DNA from: a virus
DNA length: 64,000 bases
Virus record (IMG/VR): IMGVR_UViG_3300025711_000007
Span: 15,785-79,784 of that record
Strand: one strand, 5' to 3'
The notes below the pieces were generated by a model. It saw nothing but the letters and a program-made list of their open reading frames with translations, had not been told where the DNA came from and did not search any database. A program made the translations under genes and the position numbers. This document shows positions 12,829 through 35,768 of the stretch, in pieces. How positions within the stretch are numbered: the first letter of the stretch is position 1; every line of letters starts with the position of its first letter.

Positions 12829-13575
12829 ATGCGTGAGCGCGACCATGTCGACCGCCTCCTGGAGAGCGACGACTTCTGCGTGTGGACTCCCATCGACACC
12901 ACGCTGATAGAGAAGTCAGCCAAGGCGGGCGTCGACGTCGAAGCGACGCGCCCGATCGGCGGGTGGTGCTCGACGGAGAACATCGACAGGCAAGAGGAAG
13001 TGGTCGTTGCCAAGGGGCTCGACTTCTCCGAGTTCGTGCAGTTCGGGTACTTCAACGACAACCACCGGCAAGACACCGCGTCGGTGCTCGGGTACCCGAG
13101 GCTCGCCAAGCTCCACAAGGCGGGGTGGTGGACCGAAGGTAACCTGCTGCCTGGTTACCCGCCGGCGGACCGCGTGTGGGAGCTGGCCAAGGCGCTCGCG
13201 AAGTCGCGGGCCCCCCGCAGCCTCGGGTTCTCCATCGAGGGCAAGGTGCTGGAGAGGGACGGAGGATCGCGCATCGTGAGGGCGAAGGTGCGCAACGTCG
13301 CCATCACCAACGCTCCGGTCAACACCGACTGTACGTGGTCCATCTTGTCAAAAGCGTTCTCCTCGGCGGGCCGGGTGGAGACCGCGGCTCGCAAGGCTAT
13401 GGCAGAAAACCGGACGATGGGGCAGAGTCAGGGGGGCCACAGCGTGAGCAGCATCATCCACCAGCGCAACGTGGTCCTCAGCTTCGACGAGGCGGTCGAC
13501 CGCGTGCGGAGGATCCACCCGCACCTCAGCAAAAGCGCGTGCGCGCGCGTTGTCCGCTTCGCGGCGCGTCGCTAG
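12829..13575 (+). CDS. Prohead protease (HK97-type)
   Basis: STENIDRQEE, GYFNDNH (His), GFSIEG (Ser), NVAITNAPVN. Confidence 0.92.
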   Translation: MRERDHVDRLLESDDFCVWTPIDTTLIEKSAKAGVDVEATRPIGGWCSTENIDRQEEVVVAKGLDFSEFVQFGYFNDNHRQDTASVLGYPRLAKLHKAGWWTEGNLLPGYPPADRVWELAKALAKSRAPRSLGFSIEGKVLERDGGSRIVRAKVRNVAITNAPVNTDCTWSILSKAFSSAGRVETAARKAMAENRTMGQSQGGHSVSSIIHQRNVVLSFDEAVDRVRRIHPHLSKSACARVVRFAARR

Positions 13576-16768: not shown

Positions 16769-16774
16769 TATCAT
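16746..16774 (+). promoter_or_regulatory. Candidate promoter for 16783 gene
   Basis: TCGACA-N17-TATCAT, ATG 8 nt after -10. Confidence 0.4.
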
Positions 16775-16782
16775 CGTCTGCG

Positions 16783-17298
16783 ATGGTGATCGCAGACGAT
16801 GATAAAGATGATAAGCCGGTGACGTTGTTGGTCCGTCAGTTGACCGACCGGATCCGCCGGCGCGGGTCCGACCAGCTGGTCAACTTGCCGATCGTGGACG
16901 GGATCGACATCGGCGACGTGTACCCCGTCTGCGACGTCCTCCCGCAGGACCCGACCGACGAGCAGTTCGACGACCTCGCCGTCCGGGCGTCCTCCTTCAT
17001 GGAGGACGTCCACCGGCTGCACGTCGAGCAGCGGGCGGCGCGCGGCGACTCGATCGCGGCGGCGTGCGTGCCTCTCAGCATACCCATCTTCCACCGAGGA
17101 CGTCTCCGGGAGGCCAAGGCGGCGGACGCGGCGCCGCAGCAGATGGCGAGCATCAAGGAGCGGGAGACGCTCTGCATATTCCACTTGCGCGTCCCGCTGT
17201 GGCGCGGGTACACGTGGGCCGGGCAGGCCGCGGCGATCGACGTCGTCGCTCGCCGGCACGGTCTCCGCTGCGTTGACCAGGGCCGCATCCCCGAGTAG
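16783..17298 (+). CDS. Hypothetical protein
   Basis: Only plausible ORF between capsid and next gene. Confidence 0.6.
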   Translation: MVIADDDKDDKPVTLLVRQLTDRIRRRGSDQLVNLPIVDGIDIGDVYPVCDVLPQDPTDEQFDDLAVRASSFMEDVHRLHVEQRAARGDSIAAACVPLSIPIFHRGRLREAKAADAAPQQMASIKERETLCIFHLRVPLWRGYTWAGQAAAIDVVARRHGLRCVDQGRIPE

Positions 17299-17321
17299 CC
17301 GGGCGCGCCCGCATTCGGCAG

Positions 17322-17351
17322 TTGACCGGGCCCCCGGGACCGGCCGATCAT
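17322..17351 (+). promoter_or_regulatory. Candidate leaderless promoter
   Basis: TTGACC-N18-GATCAT, ATG 7 nt after -10, no SD. Confidence 0.45.
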
Positions 17352-17358
17352 CGCGGGC

Positions 17359-17799
17359 ATGCCGCTCGCCAACGCCGCGATGGTCGACATCCTCAAGCTG
17401 CTGCTCAACAACACGACGTGGGCCGGGATCGGCGACACCACCGGGATCGTCGGGTCCGGCGCGGCGGGGTCGCTGTTCCTGAGCCTGCACACGTCGACGC
17501 CCGGCGCGGCCGGGGACCAGACCACGAACGAGATCAGTTACACCGGGTACGCGCGCGTCGCGGTGGCGCGGACGTCCGGCGGCTGGGTCGCCACGTCCAA
17601 CCCGGCGACGCTGGCGGCGACCGTGAGCTGGCCGCAGATGACCGCCGGCACCGGCGGCACGGCGACGTTCGTCGGGCTCGGCAAGTCGTCGAGCGGGGCC
17701 GGCGAGCTGATAGCGTTCGGGGCGATCTCCCCGACCATCCCGGTGAGCAACGGCGTCACGCCGCAGCTCACCACGGCGACCACGTTCACCCTGTCCTGA
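17359..17799 (+). CDS. Virion structural protein (fibre/collar-associated)
   Basis: LSLHTSTPG...NEISYTGYARVAV motif common in phage structural proteins. Confidence 0.75.
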   Translation: MPLANAAMVDILKLLLNNTTWAGIGDTTGIVGSGAAGSLFLSLHTSTPGAAGDQTTNEISYTGYARVAVARTSGGWVATSNPATLAATVSWPQMTAGTGGTATFVGLGKSSSGAGELIAFGAISPTIPVSNGVTPQLTTATTFTLS

Positions 17800-17811
17800 A
17801 GGAGGATTTTC

Positions 17812-18144
17812 GTGGCGATATTCATCGACCAGATGGTGGTCCACGTCGTCGGGTCCGGCGACGACACCCGCCCGCCGGGGATCACCGGGGACTCGTGGTG
17901 TCACGCGGTGTCCACCACGGACCTCCTCGAGCTGGAGCTGTTCTTGACCACCAACGCGGCCACGATCCTGTGCCCGCCGACCAACATCAGGACCCCGCTG
18001 CTCGGCAGCCGGCAGACCTACGTCGGCCTCAACCAGGTGCAGCTCGCCGCGGCGATCGCCGCCGGTGCGTCGCCGCGGCGCCAGATCACGACCGCGACCT
18101 CCGGGTTCGACTCCCCGGGGACCACCCCGTACTACGAGCCGTGA
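17812..18144 (+). CDS. Divergent DUF4031-like protein
   Basis: AAGGAGG SD; AIFID...WCHAVS..LLEL...AAIAAGA parallels DUF4031 pattern. Confidence 0.55.
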   Translation: MAIFIDQMVVHVVGSGDDTRPPGITGDSWCHAVSTTDLLELELFLTTNAATILCPPTNIRTPLLGSRQTYVGLNQVQLAAAIAAGASPRRQITTATSGFDSPGTTPYYEP

Positions 18145-18147
18145 GCG

Positions 18148-18774
18148 GTGGCGTCCGCGTCGTCGACGTTCACCGGCACGGAGAACCCGCTCAGCGAGGG
18201 CGGGGCCTGGGCCACGCCGTCCGCCTTCTGGGGCTCCCTGCGCAAGGCCAACGGGGCCGGCGTCGCGGCGGTGAACACCGAGAGCGGGATGCGGTACGTC
18301 GCGGCGACGTTCACCGCTAACCAGTTCTCGCAGATCGTGCTCGCGTCGGTGCCGGCCGGCGCGCAGCTCTACTTCCAGTACGTCAACGTCCGGATGAACG
18401 CGACGGCCGGTCTGTACCAGGTCGCGACGTCGTCCGAGACCGGGCCGAACATCCTGCAGCTGTACGTCGTGTCGGACGCCGGCGCGTTCACGCAGATCGG
18501 GGCGGACATCACGACGCCGTCGAACCTGGCCGCCGGCAACGTGGTCCGGCTCGAGGTGGTCGGCACGACGCTGACGGTCAAGGTCGACCAGGGGAGCGGG
18601 TTGACCACGCTGCGCACCGCGACGGACTCGACGTTCTCGACCGGGCAGCCTGGGCTCGGAGGGTGGGCGCAGTCCGGATCCGACGTCCTGTTCACCACGA
18701 GCTGGTCGGCCGGCGACGTCGGCGGGCCTCCGCCGTTCACGGGCCGGACGCCGAGCTACATGTTCTCCATCTGA
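18148..18774 (+). CDS. Putative virion lectin-like beta-sandwich protein
   Basis: GNVVRLEVVGTTLTVKV...ATDSTFSTGQPGL ConA-like pattern. Confidence 0.6.
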   Translation: MASASSTFTGTENPLSEGGAWATPSAFWGSLRKANGAGVAAVNTESGMRYVAATFTANQFSQIVLASVPAGAQLYFQYVNVRMNATAGLYQVATSSETGPNILQLYVVSDAGAFTQIGADITTPSNLAAGNVVRLEVVGTTLTVKVDQGSGLTTLRTATDSTFSTGQPGLGGWAQSGSDVLFTTSWSAGDVGGPPPFTGRTPSYMFSI

Positions 18775-18787
18775 AGGAGGGTGCGCG

Positions 18788-19258
18788 ATGCCTCGCTGCT
18801 ACACCGTTAACCTGACGCCGACCTCGATCTCAGCCGCGACGGTCGACCTGATCGCGGTGCGCGCCGGGACCGACGTCCCGATCAAGGTCCGCGCGCTCCG
18901 CGTCTGGCAGACCAGCGACTTCGGGGACGCGCAGGACGAGGTCGTCACCCTCCAGCTCGTCCGCGGCAACACGACCGCCGGGTCCGGCGCGACCCCCCCG
19001 ACGCCGGTGCCGAAGGACAAGAAGGACGCGGCGGCGAGCTTCACCGCGCGCACCGCTGACTCGACCGCGGCGAGCGCCGGCACGACGGACGTCCCGTACA
19101 CCACCGGGTGGAACGTGCGCGCGCCGTTCGAGATGATATTCCCCGACGAGATGATGGCGCGCGGCGACCAGGCCGGCGGGTTCATCGTGCTCCGGCTCGG
19201 GGCGGCGCCGACCGACGCGCTGGTGATCGGCGCGTCGATGGACGTCATCGAGGGCTGA
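18788..19258 (+). CDS. Putative virion structural protein
   Basis: AAGGAGG SD; beta-rich. Confidence 0.65.
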   Translation: MPRCYTVNLTPTSISAATVDLIAVRAGTDVPIKVRALRVWQTSDFGDAQDEVVTLQLVRGNTTAGSGATPPTPVPKDKKDAAASFTARTADSTAASAGTTDVPYTTGWNVRAPFEMIFPDEMMARGDQAGGFIVLRLGAAPTDALVIGASMDVIEG

Positions 19259-19265
19259 CCCTGTC

Positions 19266-22200
19266 GTGTCCTTTTTCTCCCCGCCGCCTCTGCCGCCGCG
19301 ACGCCGGCCTGGTCCGCCGCTCGGTGTCCAGAGCTCGGTGGACGGGGTCGGCGCGATCACCGGGTCTGGCGACCTGGCCGGCGCGTCGGCGCCGCCCGGC
19401 GCTGGCGCGCTGACCGGCTCCGGGACCCTGGCCGGCGCCGGCGCGGCGCTGGCCGCCGGGGCGGGCGCCCTGACCGGGTCCGGCACGCTGGCGGGAGCTG
19501 CCGCCACGTTCCCGCTGTCGGTGTCCGCCAACGGGCGCTACCTTGTGCAGGCCAACGGGACGCCGTTCCTGATCTGCGCCGACGCGACGTGGTCGATCTT
19601 CGTCGACATCCCGCTCGCCGGGCTCAGTTCGTTCCTCGGGACGATCGCCGCCCAGGGGTTCAACGCGGTCTCCGGCAACGCGATCGAGCACCACTTCTCC
19701 GTCGTCAAGCCACCCAAGGAGCGCGGCGGCCTCCTGCCGTTCACGCAGCGGATGGACGGGACGTCGTACACGGGGTCCCCGAACGGGACGACCGGGGCGT
19801 CCGGCACCCAGGGCCAGTTCGCTAGCGACAACTATAGCAACATAAGCAACCAGGCTCCGGACTGCACGTTCGTCAACAACAGCTACTGGGTGGTGCTGGA
19901 GACGATCCTCGACGCATGCCTCGCGAACGGGTTGCTCGTGTTCGTGTGGCCCGGGTACCTCGGGTTCAACGCCGGCGACGAGGGCTGGGCCGGCGAGATG
20001 GTGGCGTGGGACGCGGTCACCGGGGCTGGCGGCTTCACCGGGCAGCCGTTCGCCGACCCGACCAAGACGAAGATGTGGAACTACGGCGCGTGGCTCGCCG
20101 CGCGCTGGAAGAACTACGGCAACATCATCTGGGTGATGGGCGGGGACTACGGGTCCGGGACGCACCCGCTCACGGGCCCGCAGTCGGCGGCGGCGAGCAA
20201 CCTGATGGCGGGGATGAAGTCGGTGGCGGGGCAGCAGTCGCTGCTGTTCACGGGTCACTGGGACCGTTCGTCGCTGTCGACGGACACGGCGTTGGCCGCC
20301 GGGTCGTTCGACGTCAACGGGTGCTACTCCGACGACGCGACCGCCGAGCTCGCGCGGCGTGGGTACGCCGCGTCGCCGACCAAGCCCGTCGTCGGGCTCG
20401 AGGCGTACTACGAGGACAGCGCGGTCGGCGGCAGCGCGCCGTGGAGGAAGTACCTCTACTGGCAGTTCGTCGGCGGGATCGCGGGCGGCTTCTTCGGTAA
20501 CGAGCAGCTGTGGAGGTTCGACGACGGAACCCCGGGCACCGACTACACCACGCTGCTCTCGACCCAGTCGACGAACGACGCCGTGCGGCAGTTCTCGCTG
20601 TGGCGGACGCTGCCGTGGCACCGGCTGAAGCCGTCCGGGCTCGGAGGCATGGGCACGCTGATCACCGCGGGTGGAGGCACGGCGAGTCCGCAGTCGACCG
20701 ACTACGTCGCGGCGGCGGCGACGTCGGAGGGTGACCTGCTGGTCGCCTACGTCCCGCCAGCGCACACGGGGACGATCACGGTGAGCATGACCGTGATGGC
20801 AGCGTCCGCGCGGGCTCGCTGGTTCGACCCGACCAACGGGACCTTCACGCAGATCGGCGTGGTCGCCAACACGGGGACCCACGTCTTCACCCTCCCAGGG
20901 ACCAACAGCGCCGGCGACGCCGACTTCCTGCTCGTGCTCGACACGCCGGCCGGCGCGCTGACCGGCTCCGGGACCCTGGCCGGCGCCGGCGCGGCGCTGG
21001 CCGCCGGGGCGGGCGCCCTGACCGGGTCCGGCACGCTCGCCGGGGTTGGCGCCGCCTCGGCTGCTGGGTCTGGGACCCTAGCCGGGTCCGGCACGATCGC
21101 CGGGGTCGGGGCTGCCTCGGCCGCCGGCGTCGGCAGTGTCACCGGGTCCGGAGACCTCGCGGGGACCGGAGCCACCGTGATCCCGGGGTCCTCCGCGCTC
21201 GCCGGCTCCGGCACGATTGCTGGAGTCGGCGCCGAGCTCGCGGCCGGCGCTGGCGCGCTGACCGGATCGGGCACGATCGCCGGGGCCGGCGCGTTCGTGC
21301 TGCCGGGAGCCGGGGCCGGCAACCTGACCGGCTCCGGGACCCTGGCCGGCGCCGGCGCGGCGCTGGCCGCCGGGGCGGGCGCCCTGACCGGGTCCGGCAC
21401 GCTCGCCGGGGTCGGGGCGGCGCTCGTCGCCGGCGCGGGCGCGCTGACCGGATCGGGGACGCTCGCCGGGGTCGCGGCCACGACCGCGCCCGGAGCGGGC
21501 GTGATCACCGGGTCCGGAGACCTGGCCGGCGCCGCCGTCGTGCCCGCGGCGGGGTCCATCGTCGGCTCCGGCACGATCGCGGGCGTTAGCACCAGCACCC
21601 CTGCTCCCGAGGTACAAACGAACATGCCGCCAGCTCCGGTGACCCCGTCGAACCAGCCGGCTGCGTCGGCGGTCATCAGGCAGACGTCGTCGCGGTTCAG
21701 CTCGGTGTTGTCCCTCGACGACCTGACGCCGAGGTACCTGCAGGACAACTACCTCACCGGGTTCACCATCACCGGGTCCGACGGCCAGCCGCTCCCGCCG
21801 AAGTTCTATGAGGACAAGATAGCCGACGCCATAGCGAAGCTGGAGAGCGTGACGCACATCGACGTCTTGGAACGAGACGTCACCGGAGAGAAGCACGACT
21901 ACCACACGAACGACTACCTCAACTACGCGTACCTGCAGCTGTTCCGCACCCCCTGCCAGTCCATCAGCCAGGTCCGCGCGGTGTACCCGACGGGGCAGGT
22001 GATCCAGGTGTTCCCGTCCGAGTGGGTGCGCGTCTACGTCGAGCACAGCCAGATCCACCTCGTCCCGACCTCCGGCTCCCTCGCCCAGGTGATGCTCGGC
22101 GGCGGCAACGGGTACCTGCCGTTCATCTTCGCCGGCCTGTCGTACCTGCCGAACCTGTGGGAGGTCGACTACGTCTCCGGGTTCCGTGTGGACGGGGTCC

Positions 22201-22484
22201 CGCGGGAGGTCGTGAGCGCCGTCTGCAAGCTCGCCGCGATCGAGGTGCTGACCATCGCGAGCGACCTCGTCGGGCCGCTCGGCATCGCGTCTACCAGCCT
22301 CGGCATCGACGGCATGTCGCAGTCGATCGCCCGGCAGCTGCCGGCCTTCAAGGCGCGGATCGACCAGTACCGGGTCGACCTCGGCATCCCGGGCCCGGCG
22401 CTCGGGGTCGACCCGAAGTACACCACCGGAGAGATCGGGCAGCTCCGCCGCACCTACCTCGGCATGGTAGCGGTGAGCGTCTAG
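19266..22484 (+). CDS. Head-tail adaptor fused to DUF4038/apiosidase-like glycoside hydrolase and Gly/Ala/Thr repeats
   Basis: VSANGRYLVQANGTPFLICADATWS, NIIWVMGGD, KPVVGLEAYYE, ARWFDPTNG...DFLLVL (GH plus C-terminal beta domain); final ~260 aa EKHDYH..DY..YAYLQL, FPSEWVRV, SLGIDGMSQS typical of A511-type neck adaptor. Confidence 0.8.
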   Translation: MSFFSPPPLPPRRRPGPPLGVQSSVDGVGAITGSGDLAGASAPPGAGALTGSGTLAGAGAALAAGAGALTGSGTLAGAAATFPLSVSANGRYLVQANGTPFLICADATWSIFVDIPLAGLSSFLGTIAAQGFNAVSGNAIEHHFSVVKPPKERGGLLPFTQRMDGTSYTGSPNGTTGASGTQGQFASDNYSNISNQAPDCTFVNNSYWVVLETILDACLANGLLVFVWPGYLGFNAGDEGWAGEMVAWDAVTGAGGFTGQPFADPTKTKMWNYGAWLAARWKNYGNIIWVMGGDYGSGTHPLTGPQSAAASNLMAGMKSVAGQQSLLFTGHWDRSSLSTDTALAAGSFDVNGCYSDDATAELARRGYAASPTKPVVGLEAYYEDSAVGGSAPWRKYLYWQFVGGIAGGFFGNEQLWRFDDGTPGTDYTTLLSTQSTNDAVRQFSLWRTLPWHRLKPSGLGGMGTLITAGGGTASPQSTDYVAAAATSEGDLLVAYVPPAHTGTITVSMTVMAASARARWFDPTNGTFTQIGVVANTGTHVFTLPGTNSAGDADFLLVLDTPAGALTGSGTLAGAGAALAAGAGALTGSGTLAGVGAASAAGSGTLAGSGTIAGVGAASAAGVGSVTGSGDLAGTGATVIPGSSALAGSGTIAGVGAELAAGAGALTGSGTIAGAGAFVLPGAGAGNLTGSGTLAGAGAALAAGAGALTGSGTLAGVGAALVAGAGALTGSGTLAGVAATTAPGAGVITGSGDLAGAAVVPAAGSIVGSGTIAGVSTSTPAPEVQTNMPPAPVTPSNQPAASAVIRQTSSRFSSVLSLDDLTPRYLQDNYLTGFTITGSDGQPLPPKFYEDKIADAIAKLESVTHIDVLERDVTGEKHDYHTNDYLNYAYLQLFRTPCQSISQVRAVYPTGQVIQVFPSEWVRVYVEHSQIHLVPTSGSLAQVMLGGGNGYLPFIFAGLSYLPNLWEVDYVSGFRVDGVPREVVSAVCKLAAIEVLTIASDLVGPLGIASTSLGIDGMSQSIARQLPAFKARIDQYRVDLGIPGPALGVDPKYTTGEIGQLRRTYLGMVAVSV
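19404..19489 (+). repeat. 86-bp direct repeat, copy 1
   Basis: Identical to 20952..21037. Confidence 0.95.
20952..21590 (+). repeat. Repeat array encoding GAGALTGSGTLAG-type units (includes repeat copies 2 and 3)
   Basis: 20958..21046 identical to 21324..21412; further degenerate units. Confidence 0.92.
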
Positions 22485-22486
22485 CG

Positions 22487-23299
22487 ATGGGCGGCGTGAC
22501 CAAGGGCGGGGGCGTCGCTCGAGGGGGAGGGATTCGGATCTCCGTCCCGTCGCCGACAGGCGAGTGGAACCCGCAGTGGCAGGACAACGTCGTCGACTTC
22601 GACCGCGACCAGTTCACCCGGTTCATCGCGGACAAGGGGTACGACGTGGTCTGGGAGAAGGCCGTGCTGTGCCCGAACGTGCCAGGCACCGGGTTGTCGC
22701 CGCGCGACCACGTGATCGGGTGCCCGGTCTGCGGCGGTGGCGGGTTCATCTACGTCGACCCGCAGCCGACGAAGATGCTGATGCAGGGGATCCGGCTCAA
22801 CCAGAGCTTCTTCGCGTACGGCCGCTGGGACGTCGGGAACATGCTCGTGACGGCAGAGCCGGAGTTCACCATGGACTACTTCGACAGGCTGACCCTGCAG
22901 AACGGCGTCGGGCGGTTCACGCAGCGCCTGGTCCGCCAGCCCGGGGTCGCGGCGGACAAGCTCAAGTACGCGCCGCTGTGCTTCCACCACGTCGCGTGGG
23001 TCGACCGATCCGGGACGCTCGTCTCGTTCGCGGACGGTGTCGACTTCCGGACCTCGGCGGACGACTCGTCGGTCGAGTGGCTCGGTCCGGTTCAGCCCGA
23101 CGCCGGCAGCTTCTACACCGTGTGCTACGACTACCGACCGCGGTACGTCGTCCTCGACCTCGTCCACCACCATCGCGACTCCACCATCGAGGGTCAGCAC
23201 TACCAGTTCCCGGTGCAGGCGGTGGCGAAGCTCGACTACCTCACGCGGAACGAAGGTGCAGATGCGCGTCAAATTGTCGATAAGAATCCCTTCGAGTAG
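22487..23299 (+). CDS. Neck/head-closure protein
   Basis: WEKAVLCP...CPVCGGGGFIY motif; follows adaptor as in Herelleviridae. Confidence 0.8.
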   Translation: MGGVTKGGGVARGGGIRISVPSPTGEWNPQWQDNVVDFDRDQFTRFIADKGYDVVWEKAVLCPNVPGTGLSPRDHVIGCPVCGGGGFIYVDPQPTKMLMQGIRLNQSFFAYGRWDVGNMLVTAEPEFTMDYFDRLTLQNGVGRFTQRLVRQPGVAADKLKYAPLCFHHVAWVDRSGTLVSFADGVDFRTSADDSSVEWLGPVQPDAGSFYTVCYDYRPRYVVLDLVHHHRDSTIEGQHYQFPVQAVAKLDYLTRNEGADARQIVDKNPFE

Positions 23300-24035
23300 C
23301 AGAGGGTTCCTCGCGGACAAGGTGTCGCGCGCGTACGCGCGCGCCGTAGTCGACGTGGCCGGACCGCGGATCGCGTCCCTCGTCCGCGACCGGGCGTCCG
23401 CGGCGGCGGACAAGCTGGCTATGGGCTTCGCGCCGCAGTACAAGGCGGCGCTCGCCGGCGCCGACGCCGTGGTCGTCACGGAGAAGGCGGTGACGATCAC
23501 GGTCACTGACCCGATCGTGGTCGCGGCCGAGCGCGGCGCCCCGGCGTTCGACATGAAGGCGAAGCTGCTCTCGCGCGGGAAGCCGAGCAAAAGCGGCGGC
23601 GTCTACGTGGACGTCCCGATTCGCCACAAGCCCGGATCGGTCCCGCAGGCGATCCGCACGGCGGGCCGCCGGGCGGCCAGGAGCTCCGGTGGCGTCGGCC
23701 AGGTCAGGCTACCGGCGAGGACCGAAGGTAGGGTATTCACGCGCGCGCTCCACCGCGGTCCGGTCGCCCAGGCGATCGGGGTCGCGCCGAAGAAGCAGGA
23801 GGTCAAGCACAAGCGCGGTGTCCACGACGACCTCGTGCGCAGCGCGACCCGGAAGCGGGGAGGTGGGTTGGTGGTGCGGTATACGACCATACGCAGGATA
23901 TCGTCGCGCAGCGCGGCGTCGTCGTGGTGGCACCCGGGGTTCAAGGCGCGCCACGTCCTCGACGAGGTGCTGCCGCGATCGCGCCGGGAGATCGCGGCGA
24001 TCATCCGCGACGCGATCGCGGCGAGGAGCGCGTGA
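23262..24035 (+). CDS. Neck/tail completion protein
   Basis: FDMKAKLL..GGVYVDVPIRH, YTTIRRISSRS..SSWWHPG; basic; synteny. Confidence 0.72.
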   Translation: MRVKLSIRIPSSSRGFLADKVSRAYARAVVDVAGPRIASLVRDRASAAADKLAMGFAPQYKAALAGADAVVVTEKAVTITVTDPIVVAAERGAPAFDMKAKLLSRGKPSKSGGVYVDVPIRHKPGSVPQAIRTAGRRAARSSGGVGQVRLPARTEGRVFTRALHRGPVAQAIGVAPKKQEVKHKRGVHDDLVRSATRKRGGGLVVRYTTIRRISSRSAASSWWHPGFKARHVLDEVLPRSRREIAAIIRDAIAARSA

Positions 24036-24775
24036 TGTCGGACACGGTGTCGAGCCCGAGCAGCAACTTCACGGTCCCGCAGACGCAGCCGGCCGGGCTG
24101 CGCATCCCGGAGTTCGCCATCCGCCAGCTCATCGGGTGGGCGATCGGGCGGGTGAGGGAGAAGATCGGGACGCCCGACGACGTCGTCGACCAGCTGTTCG
24201 CGTTCGTGCCTCACGACACGCGCGAGCAGTTCAAGCAGTGGCTGCTGCAGAACCAGAACATATATCTGGACGTAAGTTGGCCGAGGGACCCGGTAAGTCT
24301 GGCGATGATCGTTGTGGAGCCGCAGTCAGAAGCGGAAGACACCACCAGCACGTTTCTTGGCGACTCTGTCGGCACAACGATCCGCGGGCAGTTCAGCGGA
24401 CAGACAGTTACAGAATCGCTCGCGTACGGAATTCCAGAGATACATAACACCAACATATACATCGCGTCGGACGACGATAGATTGACGCTGTTCTTGTACA
24501 CGCTCGTGAAGTTCATCGTGCTTCACAACAAAGCGTCGCTCGATCGGTTCTACGACGTCCACAACCTTAGCTTGTCGGGCGGCGTGCTGGAGCACGACAC
24601 CGACAGGATGCCGCAGTTCGTGTACTACAGGGTGCTGCAGGCCCGCTACATGACCATCTTCGACTTCAACGGCGACGCGAGCAGCGCGATCGCGTCCGTC
24701 AGCTTGGGGCTCAGCGTCGCTGAGTTCATCGACGGCGAGGAGGTCGATACCGTCGTCGAGCCGTCGGTGACCTGA
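24035..24775 (+). CDS. Tail terminator-like protein
   Basis: TGATG coupling; position before sheath. Confidence 0.68.
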   Translation: MSDTVSSPSSNFTVPQTQPAGLRIPEFAIRQLIGWAIGRVREKIGTPDDVVDQLFAFVPHDTREQFKQWLLQNQNIYLDVSWPRDPVSLAMIVVEPQSEAEDTTSTFLGDSVGTTIRGQFSGQTVTESLAYGIPEIHNTNIYIASDDDRLTLFLYTLVKFIVLHNKASLDRFYDVHNLSLSGGVLEHDTDRMPQFVYYRVLQARYMTIFDFNGDASSAIASVSLGLSVAEFIDGEEVDTVVEPSVT

Positions 24776-24848: not shown

Positions 24849-25136
24849 ATGCCGCAAGACAGCCAGGACGACAAGGAGAAACCCGCCGCGGTCGGTCGCA
24901 CGTACCGCGACGAGGTGGCTTCGCCGATCACGACGCCCGAGGCCGTCGCCGCGCGCCAGGTGCGCCAGGCGAGGTACCTGGGCCCTGACGCGGTGACCAT
25001 CCAGGTCTACTTCGTGGTCAAGCAGATCAACAACGTGATCCTCCAGGCGAGCATGCTCGCCTATACAGACGTGCGCACCGCCAGCGTCAGTGAGTTCGAT
25101 GAGATTTTCGCCAACCACCACGAGGTGAAGTCTTAA
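24849..25136 (+). CDS. Small hypothetical protein preceding sheath
   Basis: AGGAG SD; TAATG coupling to sheath. Confidence 0.7.
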   Translation: MPQDSQDDKEKPAAVGRTYRDEVASPITTPEAVAARQVRQARYLGPDAVTIQVYFVVKQINNVILQASMLAYTDVRTASVSEFDEIFANHHEVKS

Positions 25137-26956
25137 TGACCACGCAAGTCATGTTCAATGGTCAGGTCATCGTTCGTCCTGGCGCGTACACGCAGATCGA
25201 CGCGTCGCAGTTCCAGAGCACGGTGCTGCAGGGGCTCGGCATCGTCGGCCTGATCGGGGAGGCGGACCAGGGCCAACCTCGGGTCCCGCTGTCGTTCCTG
25301 GCACCGGCCGACGTCAGGAAGGCGTACGTGTCCGGGGACCTCGTCGAGGCCGCCGCGATGGTAGCTGACCCGAGCGGCGACCCTCGCGTCCCGACCGGGG
25401 CGCAGCAGATCGTCTGCTACAAGGTCAACGGCGGGACGCGGTCGACCGTGACCAGCGCGCCGTTCACGTTCACGTCTCTGCAATGGGGCATCCTGCAGAA
25501 CAACATCACCGTGGCGGTGGCGGTGAGCTCCCCGGGGTTCGTCGTCACGGTCACGAACCTCGACGCGTTCGGCGCCCTCATCTCCGAGGTCAGCACGGTC
25601 GTCGGCGGTACGGGCAAGTTCACGGTCCAGTATACCGGCGCCGGCTCGGCCGCGACGATGACGATCAACGCCACGACGCTGACCACGACCGTCACGGGAG
25701 CCGCCGCCGACAACCTCAGCCTCAGCTTCGCTGATTACCCGACGCTGTCGCTGTTGCTGCAAGCCATCTCGGCGACCGGCAAGTACGCGGTGACCGCGTT
25801 GGTCACCAACAGCAACAGCTTCGCGAGCGGCCAGCTCGACGGGGTGACGGCGGTCGACATCAAGACGGCGCTGACCACCGTGTTCGCGAAGAACGCGGAC
25901 ATCGTCAACTGGGTCAACGCGAACAGCCAGCAGATCAGCGCCACGTCCACGGCGGGGGCGGTGGCGTTCACCGGGCCGCTCGCCGCGACCCAGCTGACCG
26001 GAGGGACGCGCGGCACGTCGACGAACACCAACTGGGCCGACGGGTTCACCGCGCTGTCGAACGTCCGGATCAACCAGACGATCCCGCTCGCGTCCGCCGA
26101 CGCCGTCACCGCCCAGGGCACCTTCACGATCGCGTCGATCGCGAGCGCCGCCGTGGCGTACGCGAAGCTCGCGAGCTCCACGGCGGGCCAGAACGAGGTC
26201 CAGGCGTGGATCGGCGTGAGCCAGAACAAGACGACCCTCATCGCGACGGCCAACGCGCAGAACAGCGAGCACCTCGAACTGTTTGGGCAGCGGGTGCAGC
26301 GCACCGCCAGCGTCGGTGGTCAGACGTACATCGGCGGGTCACTCCTCAACTACACCGCCGGCCAGAGCATCTTTTTCCCGGAGTGGGCGACGGCGTGCGT
26401 CGCCGCCGGCATGCGCGCCGGCGCGCCGCTGGGCGAGCCGCTCACCTGGAAGTTCGCCAACGTCACCGGCGTCAGCAGCGACGCCACGTGGTCCGAGCAG
26501 AACAACACCGACGTCGTGGCGATGGAGCTGAACGGCGTCTGCGTGGTCAACCAGGTGCGTGGTCGCGGGTTCCGGTTCGACAAGATGATCACCACGTACA
26601 CGCGGTCGAACAACGACGCGTACACCGAGGAGATCATCGTCCAGGGGTGGAAGCTCGTGGCGTTCAACCTGCGCCAGGCGCTGCAGGACGCGTTCGTCGG
26701 CCGCGGCGGGTCGCTGCAGCGGGTGTCAACCGTCCCGGCGGTCGTCGCCACCGTGATGCAGCCGTTCAAGGACGCCGGCCTGATCACCGACAGCACCGCG
26801 AACGGTCAGCGCGTCAACGCGTGGCGCAAGGTCAACTGGTCCCTCAGCGGTGACCAGCTGAGGGTCGACGTCACGGTCACCATCACCCCGGGCATCAACT
26901 ACGTGCTCACCACGATCGTCCTCGTCCCCGCCCAGATCAGCGGCGCGGCGGCGTAG
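25136..26956 (+). CDS. Tail sheath protein
   Basis: RPGAYTQID, GLIGEADQGQP, SGDLVEAA, GEPLTWK, ITTY, LRQALQDAFVG, PGINYV. Confidence 0.95.
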   Translation: MTTQVMFNGQVIVRPGAYTQIDASQFQSTVLQGLGIVGLIGEADQGQPRVPLSFLAPADVRKAYVSGDLVEAAAMVADPSGDPRVPTGAQQIVCYKVNGGTRSTVTSAPFTFTSLQWGILQNNITVAVAVSSPGFVVTVTNLDAFGALISEVSTVVGGTGKFTVQYTGAGSAATMTINATTLTTTVTGAAADNLSLSFADYPTLSLLLQAISATGKYAVTALVTNSNSFASGQLDGVTAVDIKTALTTVFAKNADIVNWVNANSQQISATSTAGAVAFTGPLAATQLTGGTRGTSTNTNWADGFTALSNVRINQTIPLASADAVTAQGTFTIASIASAAVAYAKLASSTAGQNEVQAWIGVSQNKTTLIATANAQNSEHLELFGQRVQRTASVGGQTYIGGSLLNYTAGQSIFFPEWATACVAAGMRAGAPLGEPLTWKFANVTGVSSDATWSEQNNTDVVAMELNGVCVVNQVRGRGFRFDKMITTYTRSNNDAYTEEIIVQGWKLVAFNLRQALQDAFVGRGGSLQRVSTVPAVVATVMQPFKDAGLITDSTANGQRVNAWRKVNWSLSGDQLRVDVTVTITPGINYVLTTIVLVPAQISGAAA

Positions 26957-26971
26957 GAGAGGAGCTGACAG

Positions 26972-27454
26972 ATGGCACGCACCGCGCTCCCGCTAGGCCA
27001 AGGCACCCGCGTCATATCCGGCGCTCGGTGCGTGTTCCTGTTCAACGGCGAGATCGTCGGATTCGCGTCCGGCGTGTCGGGGTCCGAGGAGATCCAGTAC
27101 GAGCCGGTCGACACGCTCGACCACCTGGAGGTGCGCGAGCACGTCCCGGTCGGGTACCGGGTCACGCTCGGCGCGCAGCTGTTCCGCACCGTGTCTCAGG
27201 GCGCGAGCGACGATGTCAACGCCCCCGGGTCGCTGAAGCAGCAGCAGATCTTCCCGAAGTTCGACCAGATCTTCCGCATCCAGGGCGTCGACGCGGTCAT
27301 CCAGGACCACCAGGTTACGGGGAAGATCCTCCACCAGTTCCAGACGGTGAAGACGTCGAGCTACAACTTCAACATCACCCCGCGCGGCATCGTCGGCCAG
27401 AACGTCAACTTCGTCGCGATCCGGGCGCTCGACGAGTCCGAGGTCCAGCCGTGA
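26972..27454 (+). CDS. Tail tube protein
   Basis: Follows sheath; GEIVGFASGVS, EHVPVGY, GQNVNFVAI. Confidence 0.9.
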   Translation: MARTALPLGQGTRVISGARCVFLFNGEIVGFASGVSGSEEIQYEPVDTLDHLEVREHVPVGYRVTLGAQLFRTVSQGASDDVNAPGSLKQQQIFPKFDQIFRIQGVDAVIQDHQVTGKILHQFQTVKTSSYNFNITPRGIVGQNVNFVAIRALDESEVQP

Positions 27455-33603: not shown

Positions 33604-35766
33604 ATGCCGCCGTTCATACCTTCACAGCAGCCAGACGACGCCCGGGGCCGGCGCTACGCGAAGGCGTACAAGTACGTCTTCGCGATGCTGAAGGCAGGCG
33701 AGGACCTCACGACGCTCGACCAGAACAGCGGCGCGTTCAGCGCGACCTCCATCATCGACGAGGGCCGGTTCGTGTCTCTCTCCCTGCCGCAGCAGCTGCA
33801 GCTGCGCGGCCCGTTCGCGACCTCGGTCACGGTGATGCAGGACGGAGGTAAGACGATCGAGTCCAGAGGGCAGGTGCTCAGGCCGGGGTCGATCTCCGGG
33901 ACTTCAGGGTTCTTGCCTCCGAACTCGGCGGTGTCGCTGCAGCCGTCGTTCGGCCGCCTCACGCCGAACGTCGCAGACCTCGACGGCCAGCTCGGAGCGA
34001 TATCTGGATACATGCAGTTTCAGAAGCTTCGCTATTTGTTCGACCTGTACGGCGACGAGCGGAGGCGCGGTAACTTGGACGTGACGTTCTACTTCTTCGA
34101 CTACAAAAACGATGATTTCTGGCGCATCGAGCCGCAGTCGTTCGACATGACGCGTTCCAGCCACCGCCCTATGTCGTACGAGTACAGCATCCAGTTTCAG
34201 TGCATCGAGCGCGCCGACACGACGGGCAAGAACGAGGAGGTCAATCCGGTGTCCGGAGCGTCGCCGGTCATCGCGGGCAACGCGCGGCTGAACACGAACA
34301 ACGTCGGCGGCGCCTTGGCCAAGATCGCGGGCGGGCTGAGCGCGGCGTCGAAGACGTCGATCCTGGTCACGGTCGCTCGGTTCGGCGACATGGTGACGAG
34401 CGGTCTCGACTTCTTGAAGCTCACGGACGCGGTCGTGCAGCGCTCGTTCCAAGCGACGCTGAACAAGCTCGACGCGGTGATCGGGTTCTTCGCGAACGTA
34501 CACGACACGTTCTTCGCGCTGCTCGAGACGGTGCCGACGCTGATGGCCCAGCTGAGCAGCTCGCTCGACGGGTTGTTCAACACCGTCCACAAGTTCGCGC
34601 CCGACAACATCGCTCAGGAGATCAACGCGTGGGCTCTGGAGGTGACGCGACTGTCGGACCGCATGATGGTCCAGGTCAGCACGCTCGTGGCCTCGCAGCC
34701 GCAGCGCGACGTGCGGGACACCGACCAGCGGTTCTCGCAAGGCCGGATGAAGCAGGGGTCGACGACCGACCTCATGCGCGAGCCCGCCGGCAGCGCCGGC
34801 TCGCTGGACGCGAACCCGTTCATCGGGTCGTCCGGGTTGGCGCTGGTGACCGACGTCGAGAAGCTCGCTGACGCCTCGCAGCACGTAACGGTCACCATCA
34901 ACGATGGCGAAGACGTGTACGCACTGGCTCGTCGCGTGTTCGGCAGGGTCGAGCGCTTCTCCGACATCGTGCTGCTGAACAAGCTGGAGTTCCCGTTCAT
35001 CGTCGCCGACGCCGGGTCGAAGCCGTCGAACACGCTCGCGTGGGGCGAGCGCGTCCTCGTGCCGGCCCCCGCGAAGTCGATCGCGACCGCGTTCGCTGGG
35101 GTCGGTGCGTCCGACGCCCCGTCGACGTCCGGCGTGGTCGACACGTCCGCCTCGTTCGACAAGTTGATCGACAGCACCGCCGAGTGGATCACGGACCAGT
35201 GGGTCGGCTACTCGGTGACGGCGACCACCGGGTCGTCTCAGCAGACGCTGGTCTGCGCCGCGAACACGGTGAACCAGCTCACGCTCAACAGCAGCTGGGT
35301 CATCACGATCACGCCGGGAGTCACGACGTACACCGTCGCATACGTCCAGTTCGACCCGCGGCGCCCGGTGACCGCGGAGACGCGGGCGTACGGCGTCGAC
35401 CTGCTCGCCGTGTTCGGTGCGGACGGTCGCTGCGACCTCGCGCTCGGTGCCACGTCGGACTTCGCTACCGCGAGGGGCCTCGACAACCTGTTCCAGGCGA
35501 TAACGCTGCGCTCGCGGTGCCCGCTCGGCGAGCATCCGTTCCACAGGTCGTACGGGATGATTGCCCCGATCGGCCGCCCGTTCACCGACGACGTCGGCGT
35601 CCTCTACTCGTTCTTCATCCGCCGGTCGCTGCTGTCTGACCGCCGCGTCGACAAGGTCCGCAACGTGCAGCTCAGCGTCGCCAACGACGTGGTCACGGTG
35701 AGCCTCGAGTTGCAGCCAGTCGACGCCCGCGTGGCGCAGCCGATCACCATCCAGGTCGGAGCATAG
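33604..35766 (+). CDS. Baseplate protein: tube-initiator-like N-terminus, LysM-like domain, gp25/W-like C-terminus
   Basis: GEDVYALARRVFG...IVLLNKL; GLDNLFQAI...HPFHRSYG...LLSDRRVDKV. Confidence 0.78.
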   Translation: MPPFIPSQQPDDARGRRYAKAYKYVFAMLKAGEDLTTLDQNSGAFSATSIIDEGRFVSLSLPQQLQLRGPFATSVTVMQDGGKTIESRGQVLRPGSISGTSGFLPPNSAVSLQPSFGRLTPNVADLDGQLGAISGYMQFQKLRYLFDLYGDERRRGNLDVTFYFFDYKNDDFWRIEPQSFDMTRSSHRPMSYEYSIQFQCIERADTTGKNEEVNPVSGASPVIAGNARLNTNNVGGALAKIAGGLSAASKTSILVTVARFGDMVTSGLDFLKLTDAVVQRSFQATLNKLDAVIGFFANVHDTFFALLETVPTLMAQLSSSLDGLFNTVHKFAPDNIAQEINAWALEVTRLSDRMMVQVSTLVASQPQRDVRDTDQRFSQGRMKQGSTTDLMREPAGSAGSLDANPFIGSSGLALVTDVEKLADASQHVTVTINDGEDVYALARRVFGRVERFSDIVLLNKLEFPFIVADAGSKPSNTLAWGERVLVPAPAKSIATAFAGVGASDAPSTSGVVDTSASFDKLIDSTAEWITDQWVGYSVTATTGSSQQTLVCAANTVNQLTLNSSWVITITPGVTTYTVAYVQFDPRRPVTAETRAYGVDLLAVFGADGRCDLALGATSDFATARGLDNLFQAITLRSRCPLGEHPFHRSYGMIAPIGRPFTDDVGVLYSFFIRRSLLSDRRVDKVRNVQLSVANDVVTVSLELQPVDARVAQPITIQVGA

Positions 35767-35768
35767 CA

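What the first reader, a model, noticed from the sequence alone, without database searches (positions are those of the whole stretch)
19266..22484. Glycoside hydrolase fused to the head-tail adaptor through a repeat stalk
Seen: one 1072-aa ORF joining Gly/Ala/Thr repeats, a DUF4038/apiosidase (GH140)-like catalytic domain with its C-terminal beta domain, about 210 aa of further repeats, a Pro-rich linker and a complete neck adaptor. Established: adaptors form a ring on the portal, and phage depolymerases are normally on tails or separate appendages. Inference: a collar of tethered glycanases at the neck for binding or clearing exopolysaccharide.
Basis: partly seen in the sequence, partly recalled or inferred. 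Interest (0 to 1): 0.8.

Follow-up and report, generated by a model that had tools for sequence, protein, structure and literature searches.

The report
Glycosidase fused to phage neck adaptor
An uncultured high-GC soil myovirus encodes its only head-to-tail adaptor as the last 286 residues of a 1072-residue protein that also carries a GH140-like sugar-cleaving enzyme on a long Gly/Ala repeat stalk, and related phages make similar fusions to other neck proteins, so neck-mounted enzymes may be a recurring but undescribed phage feature.

Summary
Window 19266-22484 (+) is one open 1072-codon ORF. It holds an N-terminal Pro/Arg motif, 3 Gly/Ala repeats, a GH140-like barrel with its beta-sandwich, about 10.5 repeats of 20 aa, a Pro/Ser linker and a complete adaptor like that of Staphylococcus phage 812.

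Misassembly is unlikely. The ORF recurs in separate ENA and JGI contigs. Two diverged orthologs (81% and 63% identity) have the same architecture.

About 90 related adaptor clusters stand alone at 256-292 aa. The fusion arose when a horizontally shared fibre module (genes B-C-D-E plus the GH gene) replaced a small gene upstream of the adaptor.

The old adaptor start survives in frame as Met787 (ATG 21624). It has a GAGG 11 nt upstream and sits in the ORF's deepest GC3 dip. An adaptor-only product is therefore likely as well, which qualifies the "collar of twelve glycanases" reading without refuting it.

Close relatives fuse another GH140 cassette to the next neck protein, the stopper. Other phages fuse it to a neck terminator and, on weak evidence, to a head-closure-like domain.

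Best reading: enzyme-tipped neck whiskers, with unknown substrate and copy number. No expression or virion data exist.

The parts
17359..17799 (+). Gene B: a small fibre-monomer-like protein (146 aa), first gene of the shared module
   Evidence: PF23140 Gp80 (fibre I protein of podophage GP4) E 1e-10. phrog_240 E 1e-9. It is 55-83% identical, in the same gene order, in unrelated phage backbones. PMC13730344 describes gp80-like monomers as building chain-like fibres.
17812..18144 (+). Gene C: 110 aa, unknown function, a variable member of the module
   Evidence: The frame was chosen by GC3. A homolog is present in L018, and in L016 on the other strand elsewhere. No Pfam or PHROG hit.
18148..18774 (+). 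Gene D: 208 aa of unknown function. In other phages it is a separate gene or is fused to the N-terminus of the GH protein.
   Evidence: It is 50-73% identical in L015, L016, L018, L022 and L023. It is fused at residues 1-194 of P0022 and P0030. In other loci a 'MAYAF' domain takes its place, either as a separate gene or fused to the GH protein.
18788..19258 (+). Gene E: 156 aa, unknown function, always directly upstream of GH proteins that begin with the LF-PPPLPPQRR motif
   Evidence: It is 40-77% identical in 12 loci. No Pfam or PHROG hit. The ESM Atlas protein-cluster search finds only unnamed viral clusters.
19266..22484 (+). The fused ORF (1072 aa): GH140-like enzyme, repeat stalk and adaptor
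19266..19523 (+). N-terminal Pro/Arg motif (residues 1-22, 'FFSPPPLPPRRRP') and 3 Gly/Ala repeats (23-86)
   Evidence: The motif M-x-LF-x-PPPLPPQRR is conserved at the N-terminus of about 30 homologs, which fixes the start at GTG 19266. pLDDT is below 50.
19524..20951 (+). GH140-like (beta/alpha)8 barrel (residues 87-455) and C-terminal beta-sandwich (about 479-562)
   Evidence: PF13204 and PF12904. PDB sequence hits 8t9w and 3kzs/5msy. VIA-align gives Z 31.5 to 8t9w over model residues 83-562. The 'GGD' and 'E..YE' acidic residues are invariant in 33 sequences and align with the same motifs in 8t9w.
20952..21575 (+). Stalk: about 10.5 repeats of 20 aa (G-A-G-A-L-T-G-S-G-T-L-A-G-x-G-A-A-L-A-A), residues 563-770
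   Evidence: pLDDT is 40-59, with short strand pairs recurring at the repeat period.
19404..19489 (+). Exact 86-nt direct repeat, left copy. The right copy is at 20952-21037 and a third copy of 80-89 nt is at 21324-21412.
   Evidence: The spacing of 1548 nt is a multiple of 3, so recombination between the copies would remove the GH domain in frame. The other repeat units are only 60-70% alike.
21576..21623 (+). Junction and linker, with an SD-like GAGG at 21609-21612
   Evidence: The GAGG lies 11 nt before the ATG, like the sheath gene (10 nt) and the ORF's own start (12 nt).
21624..22484 (+). Complete adaptor (Met787 to residue 1072, 286 aa, plus the stop codon). ATG 21624 is the ancestral start.
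   Evidence: Stand-alone adaptors of 256-292 aa at 70-85% identity start here, for example P0115. Residues 776-794 have the lowest GC3 of the ORF, 0.60 against a mean of 0.94. PDB 8q01_b. Foldseek 8qje_W. It is the only adaptor copy in the 79.8-kb record.
22487..23299 (+). Stopper homolog (270 aa), the next neck gene. It is the fusion partner of a GH140 cassette in relatives L027 and L028.
   Evidence: phrog_1004 E 2e-28. PDB 8q01_S E 1e-11. That chain also occurs in 8qgr, which lacks the adaptor chain. The phage 812 paper describes a crystal structure of stopper gp97 with a tetra-Cys site, and the window protein has a matching Cys/CxxC pattern. The C-terminal 270 aa of P0029, P0049 and P0061 are 79% identical to it.

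Best explanation
The ORF is a genuine and evolutionarily maintained gene fusion.

Origin: A horizontally mobile fibre/glycosidase module (genes B, C, D, E and a GH140-like gene with Gly/Ala repeat arrays) replaced the small gene that normally lies between the capsid region and the adaptor. The last gene of that module runs in frame into the intact adaptor gene.

Long product (inferred): The 1072-aa product is built into the dodecameric adaptor ring through its C-terminal 286 residues. Its GH domain then hangs outside the neck on a stalk of about 240 residues, forming an enzyme-tipped whisker.

Short product (inferred): The ancestral adaptor start (Met787), its SD-like motif and its low-GC3 initiation region are retained. 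Adaptor-only subunits are therefore probably made as well, so the ring would be mixed and the number of enzymes per virion lower than twelve.

Function (inferred): The enzyme most likely hydrolyses or grips a glycan of the host envelope or of the surrounding matrix. This would help the particle bind reversibly, move through polysaccharide or avoid being trapped in it. Receptor recognition at the baseplate would be left to the ordinary tail proteins, including a pectate-lyase-like tailspike candidate.

Shown here: the architecture, the homologies, the origin by module insertion, the retained start, and the recurrence of such fusions. Everything else above is inferred.
For: Reality of the ORF:
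- It is intact, with coding GC3 throughout.
- It is identical in the ENA contigs of 116.7 and 117.0 kb and in the JGI contigs, apart from one substitution.
- Orthologs P0003 (81% identity) and P0004 (63%) have the same domain order.

Adaptor identity:
-.
- There is a single copy in the record, so the fused gene must supply this essential protein.

Origin by insertion:
- Relatives L002-L006, L027 and L028 share the backbone (MCP 85-91% identical, sheath up to 83% in L027/L028).
- They have MCP, then a small gene, then a stand-alone adaptor.
- The small gene is absent here.
- The block B-(C)-D-E-GH is 55-83% identical in phages with unrelated backbones.

Retained start:
-.

A flexible N-terminus of the adaptor:
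- Stand-alone homologs differ by about 30 low-complexity N-terminal residues.
- pLDDT is below 55 for residues 787-812.

Recurrence at the neck:
- GH-stopper fusions occur in L027, L028, P0029, P0049 and P0061.
- A cluster of eight GH proteins shares a C-terminal domain that is PF23961 'neck terminator' in the scanned member P0016 (36 bits against a cut-off of 27) and, in the precomputed Pfam column, in P0022 and P0030.
- At least two of these (P0016, P0025) have no Met at the junction. If the fused copy is the phage's only terminator, which could not be checked, the long protein must itself act as the neck protein.
- An Hc1-like domain is fused in P0012 and P0014 and is unfused directly downstream of the GH gene in L019.

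Enzyme probably active:
- The fold match to GH140 has Z 31.5.
- Acidic residues after strand 4 (GGD) and in strand 7 (E379) are invariant in 33 homologs.
- The GH domain is 60-90% identical across very different phages.

Precedent for material around this kind of adaptor:
- Unresolved 'putative neck whiskers' surround the phage 812 adaptor (PMC12886913).
Against: - There are no transcript, proteome or particle data.
- The retained start could mean that only the short adaptor is assembled.
- An SD-like motif alone is weak evidence: 15 of 131 internal in-frame ATGs have one.
- Fused adaptors are rare. Three clusters are fused and about 90 stand alone.
- In several other phages the same module lies after baseplate or tail genes rather than in the neck, so the module is not intrinsically a neck device.
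- Where the adaptor's N-terminus sits in the assembled ring was not established.
- The repeats have low model confidence. Their oligomeric state, which could clash with 12-fold symmetry, is unknown.
- The substrate is unknown. Apiosidase is only the activity of characterised family members.
Confidence: 0.6

Rival explanations
1. Tolerated accident. Only the adaptor made from the internal start at Met787 enters the virion. The 1072-aa product is not assembled. It is either wasted or acts as a free enzyme released at lysis.
For: The ancestral start, the GAGG and the low-GC3 initiation region are retained. Fusion is rare among adaptors. Many GH-cassette proteins end in short tails without a neck domain. 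In some phages the module lies by the tail genes.
Against: The fusion is kept open in orthologs down to 63% identity. Independent fusions join the GH domain to the stopper and the terminator, and some of these have no junction Met. A free enzyme gains nothing from carrying a ring-forming domain, and such a protein would tend to poison ring assembly unless it is tolerated in the ring.
Confidence: 0.2
2. Polyprotein. The long product is cleaved in the Pro/Ser linker by the prohead protease or another protease. This would release a separate fibre/enzyme and a normal adaptor.
For: A head maturation protease is encoded nearby at 12829-13575. The linker is exposed and low in complexity.
Against: The stalk and linker hold no Lys, and none of the hydrophobic-x-K-[S/A/G] motifs that another first-stage note proposed. 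The only such motif is AFKA at residue 1027, inside the adaptor. No cleavage site is known for this protease. The adaptor joins after head maturation in known assembly pathways (established knowledge, not tested here).
Confidence: 0.08
3. Assembly artefact. The repeats joined a GH gene and an adaptor gene that are separate in the real genome.
For: Exact repeats of 86 nt and 80-89 nt occur three times in the ORF. The JGI gene call for this stretch is only 435 aa (P0112).
Against: The same 1072-aa protein comes from separate ENA contigs of 116.7 and 117.0 kb and from the JGI contigs. P0003 and P0004 have diverged repeats but the same architecture. The junction from the last repeat into the adaptor and the junction from gene E into the N-terminus are unique sequence. 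By my own reasoning, not a computation, every order in which the three repeat copies can be threaded keeps the GH domain in the same ORF.
Confidence: 0.02

Closest known systems
Staphylococcus phage 812 gp96 adaptor (PDB 8q01, 8qje; PMC12886913) and SPO1 gp6.3 (phrog_772)
   Same: Residues 787-1072 are homologous in sequence and fold. The gene lies between the capsid gene and the stopper gene. Phage 812 shows unassigned whisker density around the adaptor.
   Different: The known adaptors are stand-alone proteins of about 260-300 aa. Here 786 residues carrying an enzyme precede the adaptor in the same ORF. Identity to cultured Herelleviridae is only about 30%, and the phage has a high GC content.
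GH140 beta-D-apiosidases: BT_1012 of Bacteroides thetaiotaomicron (PDB 5msy, 3kzs) and a mangrove metagenome enzyme (8t9w)
   Same: Both have a (beta/alpha)8 barrel with a C-terminal beta-sandwich. VIA-align gives Z 29.5-31.5 with about 391-397 residues aligned. Pfam PF13204 and PF12904 both match. The GGD and E..YE motifs are shared.
   Different: Identity is only 20-24%. The known enzymes are soluble bacterial enzymes of pectin (rhamnogalacturonan-II) breakdown (bioRxiv 10.64898/2026.03.13.711244). The phage enzyme's substrate is unknown. No paper in the searched library links DUF4038 with phages. Only 1 of 50,697 GenBank phage records has a distant match.
Neck appendages of tailed phages: T4 whiskers (fibritin), the PhiKZ whisker ring, Goslar collar filaments, and the lactococcal neck passage structure with carbohydrate-binding modules
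   Same: All are structures that project from the neck. Some bind carbohydrate, and their genes lie among or near the neck genes (T4 from my own knowledge).
   Different: Those are separate proteins that dock non-covalently on neck proteins, and none is reported to be an enzyme. Here the projecting part is translated as one chain with a channel-forming neck protein and carries a glycoside hydrolase fold.
phi29 gp12 appendages and tailspike depolymerases in general (from my own knowledge, not tested here)
   Same: They are virion-bound enzymes that degrade envelope polysaccharide. In phi29 they sit at the collar, next to the connector.
   Different: Those are separate trimeric beta-helix proteins of short-tailed phages, or sit on baseplates. 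This is a (beta/alpha)8 enzyme fused to the adaptor of a long contractile-tailed phage, far from the baseplate. The same phage also has an ordinary pectate-lyase-like tail protein at 39368-41482.

Membership tests
GH140 / Pfam PF13204 apiosidase-like glycoside hydrolases | Match to the family profile above the curated cut-off | tested here: met
   PF13204 scores 121.6 bits against a cut-off of 26.5, over residues 87-422.
GH140 / Pfam PF13204 apiosidase-like glycoside hydrolases | C-terminal beta-sandwich domain (PF12904) following the barrel | tested here: met
   PF12904 scores 39.9 bits against a cut-off of 22, over residues 479-559. The structural alignment to 8t9w spans model residues 83-562.
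GH140 / Pfam PF13204 apiosidase-like glycoside hydrolases | (beta/alpha)8 fold closest to solved GH140 structures | tested here: met
   8t9w_A gives Z 31.5; 5msy_B gives Z 30.0. The best GH5 chain reaches about 21 and one uncharacterised putative glycoside hydrolase (4n0r) 21.9. Foldseek gives E 2e-22.
GH140 / Pfam PF13204 apiosidase-like glycoside hydrolases | Catalytic acidic residues present | tested here: inconclusive
   D294 (in GGD, after strand 287-292) and E379 (in strand 375-380) are invariant in 33 homologs and align with the same motifs in 8t9w. I could not verify from a paper which residues are catalytic in GH140.
GH140 / Pfam PF13204 apiosidase-like glycoside hydrolases | Beta-D-apiosidase activity | not testable with these tools
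   This needs an enzyme assay. At 20-24% identity to characterised members, specificity may differ.
Herelleviridae-type head-to-tail adaptor (phage 812 gp96, phrog_772) | Sequence homology over the whole adaptor | tested here: met
   phrog_772 E 4e-33. PDB 8q01_b E 8e-14. There are 760 phage records with matches. Stand-alone homologs are 70-85% identical over 286 aa.
Herelleviridae-type head-to-tail adaptor (phage 812 gp96, phrog_772) | Fold: helical core, beta-hairpin and beta-sandwich | tested here: met
   Foldseek matches 8qje_W and 8q01_b at E 1e-12, with TM-score normalised to the target chain of 0.57-0.58 over about 255 columns. pLDDT is mostly above 85 for residues 815-1068.
Herelleviridae-type head-to-tail adaptor (phage 812 gp96, phrog_772) | Gene position between the major capsid gene and the stopper gene | tested here: met
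   The MCP gene ends at 16768, the stopper homolog is at 22487-23299, a terminator-like gene is at 24032-24775 and the sheath gene at 25136-26956.
Herelleviridae-type head-to-tail adaptor (phage 812 gp96, phrog_772) | Stand-alone protein of about 260-300 aa | tested here: not met
   The ORF is 1072 aa. Only residues 787-1072 correspond to the family. It is therefore an adaptor domain within a fusion, not a typical member.
Herelleviridae-type head-to-tail adaptor (phage 812 gp96, phrog_772) | Dodecameric ring on the portal in the virion | not testable with these tools
   This needs cryo-EM or biochemistry.
Tail-borne depolymerase / tailspike | Encoded in, and attached to, the tail or baseplate module | tested here: not met
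   In this phage the gene lies between the capsid and stopper genes, and its anchor domain is the adaptor. In some other phages the same module does lie after baseplate genes.
Non-covalent neck whiskers or collar (T4 fibritin type, lactococcal neck passage structure) | A separate protein that docks on neck proteins | tested here: not met
   The projecting part and the neck protein form one ORF. No similarity search against fibritin or neck passage structure proteins was run.

The most novel reading that the evidence does not exclude
A mobile glycosidase cassette family decorates phage necks by in-frame N-terminal fusion to whichever channel-forming neck protein lies downstream: adaptor, stopper, terminator or head-closure protein. 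The host gene's own start is kept, so that decorated and plain subunits co-assemble. The result would be enzyme-tipped whiskers whose number is set by translation and whose enzyme can be lost in frame through the flanking exact repeats.
Probability: 0.4. Interest if true: 0.8.

Novelty: new variant of a known kind. Interest (0 to 1): 0.68.

Why it matters
- Virion-bound polysaccharide-degrading enzymes are known on tails, and neck appendages are known as separate proteins of unclear role. A hydrolase translated as one chain with an essential channel-forming neck protein would join the two. It would also give neck appendages a concrete biochemical function that can be tested.
- Fusions to the adaptor, the stopper and the terminator arose separately in soil phages. 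That suggests selection for placing this enzyme at the neck.
- The retained internal start offers a simple way to mix decorated and plain subunits in a symmetric ring.
- The finding puts a glycoside hydrolase family (GH140/DUF4038) into phage biology. No paper in the searched library links the two, and the family is almost absent from sequenced phage isolates.
- It shows that N-terminal extension of neck proteins is tolerated, which is useful for phage display and engineering.

Tried and rejected
The DNA of orthologs P0003 and P0004, and of the terminator-type fusions, could not be fetched. Conservation of the internal SD at DNA level and the gene context of those fusions therefore remain untested.
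There is no read-level check of the repeats, of deletion variants or of expression.
It was redone from locus coordinates.

Corrections to my own early gene picks:
- My first ORF picks by length were wrong in two places. 22564-23283 is an out-of-frame ORF that still gave tblastn hits. The real gene is 22487-23299.
- 17322-18320 and two of the three minus-strand ORFs in 16771-18798 gave way to genes A-E on the plus strand once frames were chosen by GC3. The third, 17538-17885 (-), still passes the GC3 criteria; I preferred gene B there because of its Pfam, PHROG and cross-locus matches.

Ideas rejected or left open:
- The PHROG label 'tail fiber protein' for phrog_772 was rejected in favour of adaptor.
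- Proteins that share only the Gly/Ala repeats carry esterase, PhoD, LamG or subtilase domains in the precomputed Pfam column. None of them has a neck domain.
- The commonest C-terminal partner (phrog_1084 type) could not be identified. It is a stand-alone viral protein family of about 120 aa, with no PDB match.
- Gene E gave nothing in Pfam, PHROGs or the ESM Atlas.
- A possible internal start for the stopper in L027 and L028 (a GTG with GAGGGG upstream) has no GC3 dip and is left open.
- The phage 812 paper did not tell me where the adaptor's N-terminus lies in the ring.


Full report
**What is there**

The window is part of a 79.8-kb IMG/VR virus record, estimated 68% complete. Its GC content is about 67%. 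All structural genes lie on the plus strand:
- prohead protease, 12829-13575;
- major capsid protein, ending at 16768;
- tail sheath, 25136-26956;
- tube, 26972-27454;
- baseplate genes, 33604-37892.

The nearest cultured relatives are Herelleviridae, at only 35-39% capsid identity. This is an uncultured, distantly SPO1-like myovirus.

The ORF 19266-22484 is open for 1072 codons, with GC3 of 0.94 in its frame. Its parts are:
- a Pro/Arg motif, residues 1-22;
- three Gly/Ala repeats, 23-86;
- PF13204, 87-422, and PF12904, 479-559;
- about 10.5 repeats of 20 aa, 563-770;
- a Pro/Ser linker;
- a domain at 821-1039 that matches phrog_772.

**Identity of the two folded parts**

phrog_772 is labelled 'tail fiber protein', but this is an inherited misnomer.
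- tblastn finds SPO1 gp6.3 and 760 Herelleviridae records, some annotated head-to-tail adaptor.
- The PDB sequence search finds the adaptor of Staphylococcus phage 812 (8q01_b, E 8e-14).
- The AlphaFold model of the whole protein (mean pLDDT 68.5; GH domain and adaptor mostly above 85, repeats below 55) matches 8qje_W and 8q01_b at E 1e-12.

The enzyme part matches solved GH140 apiosidases far better than anything else. 8t9w gives Z 31.5 with 391 residues aligned at rmsd 3.0 A, and BT_1012 gives Z 30. The best GH5 chain reaches about 21 and one uncharacterised putative hydrolase (4n0r) 21.9.

Acidic residues after strand 4 (GGD) and in strand 7 (E379) are invariant in 33 phage homologs. They align with the same motifs in 8t9w. 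I take this as a probably active retaining hydrolase. I could not confirm the catalytic residues of GH140 from a paper.

**Is the fusion real?**

- The identical protein, apart from one substitution (V662A), is called on separate ENA contigs of 116.7 and 117.0 kb. JGI holds the same sequence on contigs of up to 116,986 bp, although its gene call there is only 435 aa.
- Two orthologs at 81% and 63% identity (P0003, P0004) have the same order of parts, with diverged repeats.
- The junctions from gene E into the N-terminus, and from the last repeat into the adaptor, are unique sequence.
- An exact 86-nt repeat flanks the GH domain (19404-19489 and 20952-21037; spacing 1548 nt, in frame). A third copy of 80-89 nt lies at 21324-21412. 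By my own reasoning, every way of threading these copies keeps the GH domain in the same ORF. I put misassembly at about 2%.
- Another first-stage note had flagged these flanking repeats, and I confirm them. They could delete the enzyme or change the stalk length in frame by recombination. I found no such deleted form in the protein databases.

**How it arose**

About 90 clusters of close adaptor homologs (70-85% identity) are stand-alone proteins of 256-292 aa. A search for long forms of this adaptor among 5.8 billion proteins returns only the three GH fusions and one adaptor interrupted by an intein.

Relatives with the same backbone have this gene order: capsid gene, a small conserved gene of about 90-140 aa, a stand-alone adaptor, then the stopper. 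These relatives are L002-L006, L027 and L028, with capsid protein 85-91% identical and sheath up to 83% in L027/L028.

Here the small gene is absent. DNA similarity to L028 stops near 17293 and resumes near 21679.

GC3 frame analysis shows that the intervening stretch holds four plus-strand genes and the GH part:
- B, 17359-17799, a Gp80-type fibre monomer (PF23140);
- C, 17812-18144;
- D, 18148-18774;
- E, 18788-19258;
- the GH part of the fused ORF.

The block B-(C)-D-E-GH recurs at 55-83% identity in at least ten loci whose flanking genes show no similarity to this phage.
- In one locus it lies about 5 kb after baseplate wedge genes.
- In two others it lies at what looks, from ORF sizes alone, like the end of the tail genes.
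- D, or a 'MAYAF' domain that takes its place, is sometimes fused to the N-terminus of the GH protein.

So a mobile fibre/enzyme module landed upstream of the adaptor, and its last gene is joined in frame to it.

**The internal start**

Met787 (ATG 21624) aligns with the first residue of stand-alone adaptors; P0115, for example, starts with the same peptide. Residues 787-1072 are 286 aa, the normal adaptor length.

A GAGG lies 11 nt upstream, a spacing also seen at the sheath gene and at the ORF's own start. The 15-codon windows with the lowest GC3 of the whole ORF (0.60 against a mean of 0.94) lie at residues 776-794. The only comparable dip is at the ORF's own 5' end.

The Met is kept in both orthologs. 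An SD-like motif alone is weak evidence, since 15 of 131 internal ATGs have one.

Together these features say that the old initiation region is intact. Whether it is used cannot be told from sequence.

**Recurrence at the neck**

The gene after the adaptor (22487-23299) is the stopper homolog.
- It matches phrog_1004 at E 2e-28 and PDB 8q01_S at E 1e-11.
- It has a Cys/CxxC pattern like the tetra-Cys site described for phage 812 gp97.

In L027 and L028, the closest backbone relatives that carry a GH domain, the adaptor stands alone. The stopper instead forms the last 270 residues of an ORF of about 1530-1600 aa. That ORF reads: MAYAF domain, Pro-rich 'LSWSPxFPD' repeats, GH140 (61% identical to ours), more repeats, stopper. 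P0029, P0049 and P0061 have the same C-terminus at 79% identity.

Eight further GH proteins cluster by a shared C-terminal domain. It is PF23961 'phage neck terminator' in the scanned member P0016 (36 bits against a cut-off of 27) and, in the precomputed Pfam column, in P0022 and P0030. Two of the eight (P0016, P0025) have no Met at the junction.

Two GH proteins end in a weakly Hc1-like domain (E 0.004). A homolog of that domain lies unfused just downstream of the GH gene in L019.

The commonest C-terminal partner is a phrog_1084-type viral domain of about 120 aa and unknown role.

Thus the same enzyme has been joined to the N-terminus of at least three, perhaps four, different neck proteins. 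This is the main support for real neck display.

**Mechanism proposed**

Shown: the adaptor domain is complete, it is the only copy in the record, and it follows a stalk of low complexity.

Inferred:
- The long chain enters the dodecameric ring, with the enzyme outside on the stalk.
- Short adaptor subunits made from Met787 fill the remaining positions.
- The enzyme binds or cuts a glycan of the host surface or the surrounding matrix.

Three observations fit an exposed N-terminus on the adaptor:
- Stand-alone homologs vary by about 30 low-complexity N-terminal residues.
- The model has low confidence for residues 787-812.
- The phage 812 paper reports unresolved whisker density around the adaptor ring.

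The phage also has an ordinary tailspike candidate with a pectate-lyase-like domain at 39368-41482, so the neck enzyme would be an addition rather than the main receptor-binding device.

**Comparison with what is known, and novelty**

Neck appendages are known: T4 whiskers, the PhiKZ whisker ring, Goslar collar filaments, and the lactococcal neck passage structure with carbohydrate-binding modules. These are separate proteins, and none is reported to be an enzyme. Enzymes at the phi29 collar are separate trimers of a short-tailed phage (from my own knowledge).

Three literature searches found no report of an enzyme fused to an adaptor, stopper or terminator. No paper in the searched library holds both 'DUF4038' and 'phage'. 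Only one of 50,697 GenBank phage records has even a distant match to this GH domain.

I class the finding as a new variant of a known kind: virion-borne glycan hydrolases, with a new place and mode of attachment.

**Limits**

- There are no expression, proteomic or particle data.
- Two tools that could have given read-level or contig-level evidence were unavailable.
- The substrate, the copy number and the oligomeric state of the stalk are unknown.

Noticed in passing
P0065 (related protein, 616 aa, from a JGI contig of 119,160 bp; not in the window): A 70%-identical adaptor homolog is interrupted after about residue 94 by an insert of about 312 aa. The insert has Hint/intein Pfam domains and intein-like PHROG hits. 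This looks like an intein inside a head-to-tail adaptor.
   Followed up: partly
window 39368-41482 (+): A 704-aa protein downstream of the baseplate genes has a pectate-lyase-like domain (PF12708, E 2e-14). It is an ordinary tailspike/depolymerase candidate, so this phage may carry two different glycan-active virion proteins.
   Followed up: no
L027:8768-13348 and L028:8765-13561: In the closest GH-bearing backbone relatives, a GH140 cassette with Pro-rich 'LSWSPxFPD' repeats is fused to the stopper rather than the adaptor. A conserved GTG preceded by GAGGGG lies about 10 residues before the stopper core and could be an internal start, but there is no GC3 dip there.
   Followed up: partly
L002:7409-7707, L027:6719-6988 and equivalent positions in L003-L006 and L028: Relatives have a small conserved gene (about 90-140 aa) between the capsid region and the adaptor, preceded by a hairpin that looks like a terminator. 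It has no homolog in this window or in the rest of the record, so the module replaced it.
   Followed up: partly
window 22564-23283 (+) versus 22487-23299 (+): An out-of-frame ORF over the stopper gene gave significant tblastn hits in relatives, because the DNA is conserved. GC3 analysis showed the true frame. The JGI gene call for the fused ORF is likewise only 435 aa (P0112). Gene calls in this high-GC phage need a frame check.
   Followed up: yes
P0067-P0111 (proteins that share only the Gly/Ala repeats): The same kind of 20-aa Gly/Ala/Thr repeat occurs in long metagenomic proteins whose precomputed Pfam domains include SGNH esterase (PF13472), PhoD-like (PF09423), LamG-like (PF13385) and subtilase (PF00082). 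The repeat may be a general stalk for displaying enzymes. None of these proteins has a neck domain.
   Followed up: partly
window 16783-17298 (+), gene A: A 171-aa gene directly after the capsid gene is missed by longest-ORF listing, because its frame stays open back through the capsid gene. A 53%-identical homolog sits at the same place in L028.
   Followed up: no
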